Positions 21,001 to 24,000 of a stretch of DNA of 64,000 nt are shown piece after piece. Location: NCBI RefSeq assembly GCF_003334785.1, contig NZ_QOWV01000005.1, one strand, 5' to 3'. Origin of the DNA: Escherichia coli. Lineage in GTDB: Bacteria > Pseudomonadota > Gammaproteobacteria > Enterobacterales > Enterobacteriaceae. A program made the position numbers. The number at the start of each line of letters is the position of its first letter. Positions within the stretch are counted from its first letter, which is position 1.

Positions 21001-24000
21001 AATAATGTACTGCCAGCACAGACCGTCGCAGTCTTCTTCCTGCACCGTACCGGTAACCAGCAGGGTATATTCATCTTCCAGACCGAGGTCTTTAATGATT
21101 TTACCGGCATAAACCATAGAGGCCATGCCACCTTCCTGGTCGGAAGTACCGCGACCACCAATCAGTTCATCAGTTTCCATGCCTTCGTACGGATCGAAGT
21201 CCCAGTTTTTGATGTTGCCAATGCCGACGGTATCGATATGAGCGTCCATTGCCACCAGACGCGGGCCGTGGCCGATATAACCGAGAACGTTGCCCATCGG
21301 GTCGATTTCAACTTTATCGAAGCCGACTTTTTCCATCTCTTCTTTAATACGATGTACTACGCGTTTCTCGTCGCAGCTTTCACTGGGAATAGCAACCATG
21401 TCGCGCAGGAAGCGAGTCATATCCGCCTGGTAATCTTTTGCTTTTTCAAGAATCAGTTTGAATGGAATATTCTTAGCCATTATTTTTCTCCAGATTTTTT
21501 ACTCCCCGTTTTGCAGGGAGCAGTTCCAATAGGGTGATTAAGGTGCTACAGCGTGTTTGCCTTCCCAGACAACTTCGCGGTAGTGCTTCACGTCGGTGTC
21601 GCCTTCAGTGCTGATAACCAGCACCACGGCATCTTTGTTCAGCGCCAGTTTTTCCATCAGGCTTTGACGTTGCGGGTGATAATGAACCGCTGCGAGAACG
21701 CCCAAACCGACAGCGCCGGATTCACCGGAGATGATGCGCGGGTCGTTGCCGTACGGATTACCCAGCACGCGCATACCTAATGCGGCAACGCTGTCCTGGC
21801 AGGAGATGAATTGGGTGGCGCAGTTACGTAGGATTTCCCAGCCCAGCGGGTTAGGTTCGCCACAGGCCAGGCCTGCCATGATGGTGGCCATATCACCGCC
21901 AACGTTGACGATGTCGCCTTTGACGCCGGAGCGATAAATACAGTCAGCTTTGTCAGGTTCAACAATAATGCTGTGCAGATTTTGCGGGCTATAGACGTCG
22001 ACCAGATAACCCAGCACACCACCGGCCATTGCTCCGACACCGGCTTGCAGCAGAACGTGCGTCGGGGTTACGCCCATTTCACGCATTTGCTCGACGGCTT
22101 CATCTGCCAGGGTTGCGTAGCCTTGCATGATCCAGGTTGGGATTTTGGTGTAACCTTCCCATGCCGTGTCCTGTACCACTTCCCAGCCGTGCTGCTGCGC
22201 GTGTTGCATGGTCAGGCGAACGGTATCGTCATAGTTCATATCCGTGACGATGCACTCGGCACCGAGGTTCAGAATGGCGTCAACGCGTTCCTGAGCAGAA
22301 CCTTTCGGCATGTAAATCACCGCATTCTGTCCGAGTTGCTGTGCTGCCCACGCCACACCGCGCCCGTGGTTGCCGTCGGTGGTGGTCGCGAAAGTCATTT
22401 TTTCGCCGATGGCATTTTTCAGGTGCTCAAATGACAGCGTTTCGATATCAAGATGATATTTTTCACACAATAATTGAGCGATGGCGTACGCACCGCCAAG
22501 CATTTTGAAGGCGTTCAGACCGAATCGTTTTGATTCGTCTTTGACGAGAATTTTCTTCACACCAAAAAGGTTTGCGAGATCGTCCAGCGCACAAAGCGGT
22601 GTTGGGCGATAACCAGCTATTTTCTGGTGGAACTGGCGCGCCAGTTTGGCCTGGCTTTGCGAAAAGAGCGGTGATGTTTCGCCGTTGAAAAATTTGTTAT
22701 CGGCGATATCAATCTTCAATGAGAAAACGGACATATCCTATCCTTTTGGCCTCTGGAAATAGAGGGCCGACCAGCTGATCGGCCCGAGGGGTTATTTCAC
22801 GCGTTCTTGCGCTTCTTTCAGCAGTTGCTCGAGCAGTGCACCTGGTTTGGCGTATTTACGGGACAGGATCATCGCGGCGATGATATAAGGCTTCCAGCTG
22901 GCTTCTTTGTAGGTAGCGATACGGTATTTTTCGAATACGCCTTCAGTCACTTCACCTTCTTTACAGGATACGCCGCTGATATCAGCTGGCAGGCAGTGCA
23001 TGTACAGGGCTTCGCCATCACGGGTCAGTTCCATCATCTCTTCAGTACAATGCCAGTCTTTGTGTTGCGCGTTCTGTGCCAGACACTGTTTTTCCAGTGC
23101 TTTTAAGCCTTCGTGATCGTTCGCACGCAGCAATTCAGTACGCTCTTCCATCACTTTGTAAGGTGCCCATGACTTCGGATAAACGATGTCTGCGTCTTTG
23201 AAGGCTTCTTCCATGCTGGTGACCTGACGGAAGCTACCACCGGAGGCTTTAGCATTGTTTTTCGCCACTTCAACCACATCCGGGATCAGGTCGTAGCCTT
23301 CCGGATGGGCCAGGGTGACATCCATACCGAAGCGAGTCATCAGACCGATGATGCCTTGTGGTACAGAGAGCGGTTTGCCATAGCTTGGAGAGTAGGCCCA
23401 GGTCATGGCGATTTTTTTACCTTTCAGGTTTTCCAGTGAACCAAAGTGTTCACGTAACCACGCGAGGTCAGCCATTGACTGAGTCGGGTGGTCAATATCG
23501 CATTGCAGGTTCACTAAAGCCGGACGCTGTGGCAGTACACCCTGCTTGTAACCGTCATCAAGTGCAGCGCCAACTTCACGCATATAGGCGTTGCCTGCGC
23601 CCAGATACATATCGTCGCGAATACCAATAGCGTCGGCGCAGAAGGAGATCATATTGGCGGTTTCACGCACGGTTTCGCCGTGAGCGATTTGTGATTTGCC
23701 TTCGTCGAGATCTTGTTGTGCAAGGCCGAGCAGGTTAAGCGCGGAAGCATAAGAGAAGCGGGTACGGGTGGAGTTGTCGCGGAATACGGAAATACCTAAT
23801 CCACTATTAAAGACTTTGGTTGAGATGTTTTCAGCACGCAGTGCTTTTAATGCTGCGGCAACGTCCAGTACTTGTTTCAGTTCATCTGGCGTCTGTTCCC
23901 ACGTTAACAAAAAATCTTTCTCGTGAAGGTGAGAGGTCAGCGAATTGATATCCTTAATCAGCTCATTAACAGTTTTCATCATAAAGTCCCGGTAGTGGAA

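What the first reader, a model, noticed from the sequence alone, without database searches (positions are those of the whole stretch)
22745..22785. Two mutually exclusive hairpins between ygeW and ygeX
The segment ggcctct-ggaaat-agagggcc and the segment gggccga-ccagctga-tcggccc share the central gggcc, so only one can form at a time. The structure lies just upstream of the ygeX Shine-Dalgarno sequence. It could be an attenuator or processing site, or simply a REP-like element.
Basis: seen in the sequence. Interest (0 to 1): 0.25.

Follow-up and report, generated by a model that had tools for sequence, protein, structure and literature searches.

The report
Ordinary stem-loop ending the ygeW message
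The spot between the E. coli uric-acid-pathway genes ygeW and ygeX holds one strong, evolutionarily conserved RNA hairpin of the common terminator or stabiliser kind, not a two-state switch and not a REP repeat, so it is real but ordinary.

Summary

**Hairpin A** (22764-22785) in RNA sense is GGGCCGAUC-AGCU-GGUCGGCCC.
- It has 9 pairs, scores -16.9 kcal/mol, and starts 6 nt after the ygeW stop codon.
- It is followed by UCUAUUUCC.
- It is among the five strongest compact hairpins in the 64-kb window.
- It occurs once per genome, and the spacer is identical in 5100 of 5175 E. coli genomes that carry it.
- It is kept in nine Enterobacterales sequences with two compensatory pair changes. Every one-sided change is a G·U wobble in the sense strand.
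- More distant relatives carry unrelated hairpins at the same position.

**Hairpin B** (22748-22768) is weak and looks incidental.
- It has 5+2 pairs with a bulge and scores -7.7 kcal/mol.
- Its equilibrium probability is about 3e-4.
- 11.6% of shuffles match it, and it is absent outside E. coli.

REP membership fails on both copy number and sequence.

Best reading: an intercistronic hairpin that forms or protects the 3' end of ygeW mRNA inside the sigma-54 ygeW-to-yqeA unit. It would act as a leaky terminator and/or an exonuclease barrier. The ygeX-ygeY and ygeY-hyuA junctions carry similar hairpins. No 3'-end data were found. Low interest.

The parts
22764..22785 (-). Hairpin A, the real element. 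RNA is GGGCCGAUC (22785-22777), loop AGCU (22776-22773), GGUCGGCCC (22772-22764). It has 9 bp including one G·U.
   Evidence: It scores -16.9 kcal/mol and is picked up by the terminator-like scan. It ranks in the top five compact hairpins in the window. It is conserved with 2 compensatory pairs across 9 Enterobacterales sequences.
22755..22763 (-). Tail UCUAUUUCC directly 3' of hairpin A. It is an interrupted U-rich tract with 5 U in the first 8 nt.
   Evidence: T-score 1.89. The tail is not conserved as a U-run abutting the stem in relatives.
22748..22768 (-). It has 5 bp, a C bulge and 2 bp, and overlaps the 3' arm of A.
   Evidence: It scores -7.7 kcal/mol and has equilibrium probability about 3e-4. 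It forms only if at least 12 nt after the stop codon are masked, and 11.6% of shuffles do as well. It is not conserved.
22786..22791 (-). CCCCUC spacer between the ygeW stop codon and hairpin A. CCUC (22789-22786) pairs with GAGG (22753-22750) in the minimum-energy fold, extending A across an internal loop.
   Evidence: A pyrimidine-rich spacer of 6-12 nt between stop codon and stem is seen in 12 sequences.
22792..23982 (-). ygeW coding sequence (knotted carbamoyltransferase). The stop codon UAA is at 22794-22792. RefSeq starts the gene at 23979.
21538..22734 (-). ygeX/dpaL coding sequence (diaminopropionate ammonia-lyase). AUG is at 22734-22732. The likely Shine-Dalgarno AAGGA is at 22745-22741, 6 nt from the AUG.
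24073..24088 (-). Sigma-54-type promoter match TGGCACACTTATTGTT, about 90 nt upstream of ygeW. No such match lies in the ygeW-ygeX spacer; the nearest are degenerate 2-mismatch hits inside ygeW (23066-23081) and ygeX (22628-22643).
   Evidence: The literature reports sigma-54 promoters upstream of ygeWXY (PMC10602906) and an RpoN SELEX peak between ygeV and ygeW (PMC8743547).
21499..21522 (-). Second intercistronic hairpin of the same operon, at the ygeX-ygeY junction: CUCCCUG-CAAAA-CGGGGAG.
   Evidence: (-13.8 kcal/mol).
20229..20252 (-). Third intercistronic hairpin, at the ygeY-hyuA junction: CCCUCCGG-UUCG-CCGGAGGG followed by UUUUU. It ends 16 nt before the hyuA AUG.
   Evidence: -16.6; d=+22. 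A strong hairpin sits at this junction in all 16 gammaproteobacterial loci examined.

Best explanation
Hairpin A is an RNA-level stem-loop in the sense transcript. It sits 6 nt past the ygeW stop codon, inside a transcription unit that starts at the sigma-54 promoter upstream of ygeW and continues into ygeX, ygeY, hyuA and yqeA.

It most likely creates and protects a 3' end for a ygeW-only message by one or both of two routes:
- Some polymerases terminate at the interrupted U-tract UCUAUUU (a leaky Rho-independent terminator).
- Read-through transcripts that are cut downstream get trimmed back by 3'-5' exonucleases until they meet the hairpin (a decay barrier).

Either route gives more or longer-lived ygeW mRNA than downstream mRNA. 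Enough read-through remains to express ygeX, which has no promoter of its own in the spacer. Hairpin B plays no part at equilibrium.

Shown here: the hairpin, its strength, its strand, its conservation and covariation, its single-copy status, and the lack of a promoter match in the spacer. Inferred: termination, exonuclease blocking, and any effect on the ygeW:ygeX ratio. My split within this explanation is roughly even between leaky terminator and pure decay barrier, and the two are not exclusive.
For: Structure:
- 9-bp GC-rich stem, 4-nt loop, -16.9 kcal/mol, P(paired) 0.98-1.00.
- Found by the terminator-like scan with tail TCTATTTCCA.
- Top five of all compact hairpins in 64 kb.

Strand:
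- The sense RNA is 4.1 kcal/mol more stable than the antisense.
- Every one-sided change in relatives is a G·U in the sense strand.
- The N96 lineage changes 3 of 4 loop bases and turns one G-C into G·U.

Conservation:
- Across 9 Enterobacterales sequences, 91% of cells pair, against 15-56% when the partners are slid.
- Two pairs show compensatory double changes (U-A/C-G and G-C/A-U).
- RNAalifold predicts hairpin A as the only consensus structure.
- Non-homologous hairpins of -14 to -19 kcal/mol begin 6-12 nt after the ygeW stop codon in Hafnia, Cedecea sulfonylureivorans and Serratia oryzae. Aeromonas also has a strong hairpin after ygeW. Photobacterium has a canonical terminator further along its longer spacer.
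- The 57-nt spacer is identical in 5100 of 5175 E. coli genomes.

Context:
- There is no sigma-70-like or sigma-54-like promoter match in the spacer.
- ygeW, ygeX, ygeY and hyuA co-vary in the YgeV iModulon and are called the ygeWXY operon (PMC10602906, PMC12133099).
- The next two junctions of the operon also carry hairpins. This matches the consecutive protective hairpins described for menBCE, and the malE-malF model (PMC5927463).

Internal calibration: by the same hairpin and U-tract score, hairpin A (d=-8) is more terminator-like than the hairpins at the true ends of yqeA, xdhC and ygeV in this window (d=-21 to -29).
Against: - No experimental 3' end, half-life or coverage data for this junction could be found. 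ygeW is absent from the supplements of the 3'-end and operon-decay studies that are held, and two other studies have no held supplements.
- The U-tract is interrupted. In relatives the U-run sits 4-6 nt from the stem or is missing, which argues against efficient termination there.
- The consensus scan finds as many terminator-like sites as it does in shuffled sequence (5 against 4.7), so that hit alone carries little weight.
- Erwinia mallotivora manages with a 13-nt spacer and no hairpin.
- 75-nt coding-region control windows in GC-rich relatives sometimes reach -15 to -21 kcal/mol.
Confidence: 0.62

Rival explanations
1. Ribosome-gated two-state element, the closest workable form of the reader's idea. 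A ribosome terminating at the ygeW stop codon covers the 5' arm of A, so A melts, B forms from the freed 3' arm, and this changes read-through or ygeX translation.
For: The stem starts only 6 nt after the stop codon (6-12 nt in 12 sequences). With at least 12 nt after the stop masked, the minimum-energy fold does switch to hairpin B. General knowledge holds that terminators close to stop codons are weakened by the terminating ribosome.
Against: B is no better than 11.6% of shuffles and is absent outside E. coli. Masking the ribosome footprint does not consistently change the predicted accessibility of the ygeX Shine-Dalgarno sequence across 12 species: E. coli goes from 0.50 to 0.53, most others are unchanged, and some go down. 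B does not include the Shine-Dalgarno sequence.
Confidence: 0.07
2. A REP/BIME-type repetitive extragenic palindrome.
For: It is a GC-rich intergenic palindrome in E. coli. A weak sub-threshold naRNA4 (REP-derived) Rfam hit lies nearby, but inside ygeX (E=0.99).
Against: There is exactly one place per genome in 5175 genomes, even at E<=10 with 11-nt words. Alignment scores to REP consensus sequences and to genuine local REP copies are no better than shuffles. Real REPs 5 kb away in K-12 look quite different.
Confidence: 0.01
3. A DNA-level palindrome that binds a dimeric protein, for example a regulator acting on ygeX.
For: It is a 22-bp near-perfect palindrome centred on AGCT.
Against: The imperfections are G·U wobbles in the sense RNA, which are mismatches at the DNA level and in the antisense strand. 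Relatives keep the pairing but not the sequence. There is no promoter match in the spacer for such a site to control. The position just after a stop codon is typical of RNA 3' structures.
Confidence: 0.03
4. The hairpin acts mainly on translation. It insulates the two cistrons, or it slows or positions ribosomes between ygeW termination and ygeX initiation, with no effect on RNA 3' ends.
For: The spacing to the stop codon is tight and conserved, and the spacer is pyrimidine-rich. All three junctions of the operon have a similar 50-57-nt spacer with a hairpin before the next ribosome-binding site.
Against: Folding shows no consistent sequestration or release of the Shine-Dalgarno sequence. Nothing in the sequence is specific to this role.
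Confidence: 0.1

Closest known systems
Protective 3' stem-loops at cistron boundaries that cause differential decay within operons (malE-malF; consecutive hairpins after menB and menC; Dar & Sorek 2018, PMC5927463)
   Same: It is a stable hairpin directly after the upstream cistron and is conserved in orthologous operons. Several consecutive junctions of one operon carry one.
   Different: The malE-malF element is a REP and this one is single-copy. No half-life or 3'-end data exist here, so the functional outcome is untested.
Leaky Rho-independent terminators inside operons. From general knowledge, examples are the internal terminator of rpsU-dnaG-rpoD and the rplL-rpoB attenuator.
   Same: It has a GC-rich 9-bp stem, a 4-nt loop and a U-rich tail. 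It lies between co-regulated genes, and the downstream gene lacks its own promoter.
   Different: The U-tract is interrupted (UCUAUUUCC) and is not conserved next to the stem in relatives. Termination has not been measured.
Classical attenuators with terminator and antiterminator alternatives (trp and his leaders, riboswitch expression platforms)
   Same: There are two overlapping stem-loops upstream of a gene.
   Different: The alternative is 9 kcal/mol weaker, lies downstream of the stable hairpin rather than upstream, is not conserved, and has no sensor. There is no Rfam match.
REP/BIME elements
   Same: It is an intergenic GC-rich palindrome in E. coli.
   Different: It is single-copy and has no sequence similarity.

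Membership tests
Rho-independent (intrinsic) terminator | GC-rich stem of about 5-14 bp with a 3-8-nt loop, in the sense transcript downstream of a stop codon | tested here: met
   9 bp (7 G-C), loop of 4 nt, -16.9 kcal/mol, 6 nt after UAA.
Rho-independent (intrinsic) terminator | Run of U directly abutting the 3' side of the stem | tested here: inconclusive
   UCUAUUUCC has 5 U in 8 nt but is interrupted. Its T-score of 1.89 is equal to or higher than that of the operon-end hairpins in the window (1.0-1.9), and lower than the 3.5 at ygeY-hyuA. In relatives the U-run is displaced by 4-6 nt or absent. The score formula was recalled from memory.
Rho-independent (intrinsic) terminator | RNA 3' ends in the U-tract in vivo or in vitro | not testable with these tools
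   No entry for ygeW in the held supplements of E. coli 3'-end and operon-decay studies.
Protective intercistronic 3' structure (differential operon decay) | Stable structure at the boundary between two co-transcribed cistrons | tested here: met
   Co-regulation is reported in PMC10602906.
Protective intercistronic 3' structure (differential operon decay) | Structure conserved in orthologous operons | tested here: met
   91% of cells paired, 2 compensatory pairs, and RNAalifold consensus equal to hairpin A. Non-homologous hairpins occupy the same position in other genera.
Protective intercistronic 3' structure (differential operon decay) | Upstream segment longer-lived or more abundant than the downstream one, with a processed 3' end at the hairpin | not testable with these tools
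   No data found.
REP/BIME | Many copies per genome | tested here: not met
   One place per genome in all 5175 genomes that have it, at E<=10.
REP/BIME | Similarity to the REP consensus | tested here: not met
   Local alignment scores of 6-8 against shuffle means of 6.5-7.4. The two consensus sequences were recalled from memory.
Terminator/antiterminator attenuator or riboswitch | Two exclusive structures of comparable stability | tested here: not met
   -16.9 against -7.7 kcal/mol. P(B) is about 3e-4.
Terminator/antiterminator attenuator or riboswitch | Alternative structure and a sensor conserved across relatives | tested here: not met
   B's GGCC arms pair in 2 of 9 sequences. There is no Rfam family at E<=10 apart from chance-level hits.

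The most novel reading that the evidence does not exclude
Hairpin A sits 6-12 nt after the ygeW stop codon in every genus that has it. That spacing could make it a translation-sensing terminator. When ygeW is translated by a ribosome closely following the polymerase, the terminating ribosome covers the 5' arm and transcription reads through into ygeX-yqeA. When ygeW translation fails, the hairpin forms and the downstream pathway genes are shut off. In E. coli, hairpin B would hold the freed 3' arm. The two further hairpins in the operon would then form a series of such checkpoints.
Probability: 0.06. Interest if true: 0.4.

Novelty: new member of a known kind. Interest (0 to 1): 0.1.

Why it matters
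The practical interest is modest. ygeW, ygeX, ygeY, hyuA and yqeA encode consecutive steps of the recently worked-out anaerobic uric-acid (2,8-dioxopurine) pathway of gut bacteria. That pathway is being engineered into probiotic E. coli by placing strong promoters upstream of ygeW (PMC12507026).

Hairpins after ygeW, ygeX and ygeY could set the relative amounts of these enzymes and limit read-through from an inserted promoter. Anyone tuning the pathway should know they exist. Biologically it is one more example of a well-known class of element.

Tried and rejected
- **Rfam scans.** The scan of 20000-26000 at E<=10 gave only chance-level hits: SorY at 17 bits against a gathering score of 111, and naRNA4 inside ygeX. 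The scan of eight related loci at gathering threshold gave nothing.
- **REP.** Rejected on copy number and sequence.
- **Two-state switch.** Rejected on energies, ensemble probabilities, a shuffle test and lack of conservation.
- **Translational coupling through Shine-Dalgarno release.** Masking the ribosome footprint gave no consistent change across 12 species.
- **An own promoter for ygeX.** There is no sigma-70-like site on the minus strand near the spacer and no sigma-54-like match in the spacer.
- **RNase III site.** The helix is too short: 9 bp, or 13 with the interrupted outer helix. This rests on general knowledge of the enzyme's need for about two helical turns.
- **Experimental 3' ends.** ygeW/ygeX are not in the held supplements of PMC7815308 and PMC5927463. 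No supplements are held for PMC6061677, PMC9023263 or PMC10602906. The RNA-seq result of the promoter-insertion strain exists only as an image.
- **Absolute terminator threshold.** The recalled threshold (d>0) gave negative values even for the hairpins at true operon ends in this window. I therefore used the score only for relative comparison.
- **Not done.** I did not retrieve the 75 E. coli genomes whose spacer differs, apart from strain N96.

Full report
**What is in the sequence.**
The window matches E. coli at 100% over this region. RefSeq annotates the two flanking genes as ygeW (knotted carbamoyltransferase) and dpaL/ygeX (diaminopropionate ammonia-lyase). Both are on the minus strand: ygeW at 22792-23982 and ygeX at 21538-22734, with a 57-nt spacer between them.

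In RNA sense the spacer reads UAA-CCCCUC-GGGCCGAUC-AGCU-GGUCGGCCC-UCUAUUUCC-AGAGGCC-AAAAGGAUAGGAU-AUG. Two details change once the correct strand is read.
- Hairpin A grows from 7 to 9 base pairs with a 4-nt loop, because an A-U and a G·U pair are added.
- Hairpin B is imperfect: 5 pairs, a one-base bulge, then 2 pairs.

**Do the two hairpins compete?**
They do not.
- Alone, A folds at -16.9 kcal/mol and B at -7.7.
- In the ensemble of the spacer with its flanks, the A pairs have probability 0.98-1.00. B's four outer (GGCC-arm) pairs have about 3e-4.
- A hairpin at least as good as B appears in 11.6% of shuffles of the downstream 29 nt.
- A is also transcribed first.
- B becomes the minimum-energy fold only when at least 12 nt after the stop codon are forced single-stranded, as a terminating ribosome might do.

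**Is hairpin A more than chance?**
It is. A 24-nt sliding fold over both strands of the window puts it among the five strongest compact hairpins in 64 kb. No shuffle of the window produced a match to it. The 76-nt region folds better than shuffles on the sense strand (z=-2.2) but not on the antisense strand (z=-1.25).

**Is it a REP?**
It is not. A sensitive search with the 57-nt spacer at E<=10 found exactly one place per genome in 5175 of 5426 complete E. coli genomes. Alignment to REP sequences is no better than for shuffled spacers. Genuine REPs lie 5 kb away in K-12 and look quite different. Rfam has nothing above noise.

**Conservation.**
Within E. coli the spacer is identical in 5100 of 5175 genomes. 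One divergent lineage (strain N96) changes three of the four loop bases and turns one G-C into G·U, so the stem is kept.

A scan of one genome per species with the YgeW protein gave 80 loci. In 18 gammaproteobacterial species ygeX follows ygeW.

In nine Enterobacterales sequences the hairpin can be aligned: two E. coli, plus Pluralibacter, Serratia silvae, two Enterobacter, Cedecea neteri and two Edwardsiella.
- 91% of cells pair, against 15-56% when the partners are slid.
- Two pairs show compensatory double changes (U-A/C-G and G-C/A-U).
- Every one-sided change is a G·U in the sense strand.
- RNAalifold returns hairpin A as the only consensus structure.

Hairpin B's GGCC arms pair only in the two E. 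coli rows.

Hafnia, Cedecea sulfonylureivorans and Serratia oryzae carry unrelated hairpins of -14 to -19 kcal/mol that begin 7-12 nt after the stop codon. Aeromonas and Photobacterium have longer spacers: Aeromonas carries a strong hairpin soon after ygeW, and Photobacterium carries a canonical terminator (GCGGGGG...CCCCCGC-AUUUUU) further along. Erwinia mallotivora has a 13-nt spacer and no hairpin. The sense-strand hairpin is at least as stable as its antisense version in 11 of 12 cases.

The selected feature is therefore an RNA stem in the ygeW-sense transcript, at a fixed short distance from the stop codon.

**Context.**
A sigma-54-type match (TGGCACACTTATTGTT, 24073-24088) lies about 90 nt upstream of ygeW. 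No sigma-54-like or sigma-70-like match lies in the spacer before ygeX.

The literature reports sigma-54 promoters upstream of the ygeWXY operon. It places ygeW, ygeX, ygeY and hyuA in one co-varying YgeV iModulon (PMC10602906; PMC12133099). One RpoN SELEX table lists ygeW as a transcription unit on its own (PMC8743547).

The genes encode consecutive steps of the anaerobic uric-acid (2,8-dioxopurine) pathway (bioRxiv 10.1101/2025.04.24.650524; PMC12507026). ygeX therefore has to be expressed by read-through of hairpin A.

The next two junctions of the operon have the same layout.
- The ygeX-ygeY junction is a 57-nt spacer with CUCCCUG-CAAAA-CGGGGAG.
- The ygeY-hyuA junction is a 52-nt spacer with CCCUCCGG-UUCG-CCGGAGGG-UUUUU, ending 16 nt before the hyuA AUG.
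- The ygeY-hyuA hairpin is present in all 16 gammaproteobacterial loci that reach it. The ygeX-ygeY hairpin is present in many.

**Mechanism.**
The hairpin and tail fit the terminator pattern, but that scan is unspecific: it found 5 sites against 4.7 expected. The tail UCUAUUUCC has 5 U in 8 nt and is interrupted.

I applied a hairpin and U-tract score recalled from memory (d'Aubenton-Carafa type). Hairpin A scores d=-8. That is higher than the hairpins at the real ends of yqeA, xdhC and ygeV in this window (-21 to -29) and lower than the ygeY-hyuA hairpin (+22). In relatives the U-run is displaced or absent, with d from -19 to -31. What is conserved is the stem, not a U-tract.

This fits the class of intercistronic 3' hairpins. 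These either terminate a fraction of transcripts or block 3'-5' exonucleases after downstream cleavage, as described for malE-malF and for the consecutive hairpins of menBCE (PMC5927463).

I commit to this class at 0.62 confidence, split about evenly between leaky termination and a pure decay barrier. The steps from structure to termination or stabilisation are inferred. No 3'-end or half-life data for this junction could be found. The one relevant RNA-seq experiment is available only as an image.

**Alternatives.**
However, B is not conserved, and masking the ribosome footprint does not consistently change the predicted accessibility of the ygeX Shine-Dalgarno sequence in 12 species.
- A DNA-level protein-binding palindrome is unlikely, because the imperfections are wobble pairs only in the sense RNA and relatives keep the pairing rather than the sequence.
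- A neutral relic is unlikely given the covariation and the independent hairpins at the same position.

**Verdict.**
This is a real, conserved and unannotated stem-loop of an ordinary kind. It is a new member of a known class, of low general interest, and of some practical relevance to people engineering this operon.

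Noticed in passing
window 20229-20252 (-): The ygeY-hyuA junction holds a textbook terminator-like hairpin, CCCUCCGG-UUCG-CCGGAGGG followed by UUUUU, only 16 nt before the hyuA start codon. 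A strong hairpin sits at this junction in all 16 gammaproteobacterial loci examined. It is unclear how hyuA and yqeA are expressed past it.
   Followed up: partly
window 21499-21522 (-): The ygeX-ygeY junction holds a hairpin CUCCCUG-CAAAA-CGGGGAG (-13.8 kcal/mol) followed by an A-run, not a U-run. It is present in several relatives and missing in those with short spacers.
   Followed up: partly
window 17819-17845; L002 10950-11156: In the window, the convergent yqeA/yqeB spacer has one copy of the hairpin AGGCCGGGTGGGTAATACCATCCGGCC. In K-12 MG1655 the same spacer carries an insert of about 150 bp with two REP units, flanked by a direct duplication of this 27-nt hairpin. The window strain therefore shows the empty site, and it is not K-12.
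   Followed up: partly
L010 4255-4347, L011 1440-1534, L012 4240-4316: Three Aeromonas species have a second, longer conserved structure just upstream of ygeX (GAGUnnUCUCCCC ... GGnGAGA). It has 19 predicted pairs, 3 of them with compensatory changes, and no Rfam match.
   Followed up: partly
window 9901-9924 and 1907-1930: Two of the strongest compact hairpins in the window (-18.3 and -18.7 kcal/mol) lie inside coding regions. By coordinate mapping to the K-12 record these are ssnA, about 150 nt before its stop codon, and ghxQ.
   Followed up: no
window 26246-26269: A perfect 10-bp palindromic hairpin AUCCGGCCUG-AAUU-CAGGCCGGAU (-18.8 kcal/mol on both strands) fills the 39-nt gap between the convergent genes xdhC and ygeV. 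It is probably a two-way terminator.
   Followed up: no
one search hit H30 (NZ_CP119734.1) and summary: In strain E92 the 321-nt query is split into two places in the record, with the best place ending at query position 211. By my coordinate mapping that is about window 22710, near the start of ygeX, and it suggests an insertion there. Separately, one of the 5175 matches lies on a record labelled as a plasmid.
   Followed up: no
window 20269-23982 (-): The four spacers of the ygeW-ygeX-ygeY-hyuA-yqeA unit are all of similar length (57, 57, 52 and 47 nt). The neighbouring purine-catabolism genes are mostly packed tightly or overlap (ygfK-ssnA 2 nt, ygfM-xdhD overlapping).
   Followed up: no
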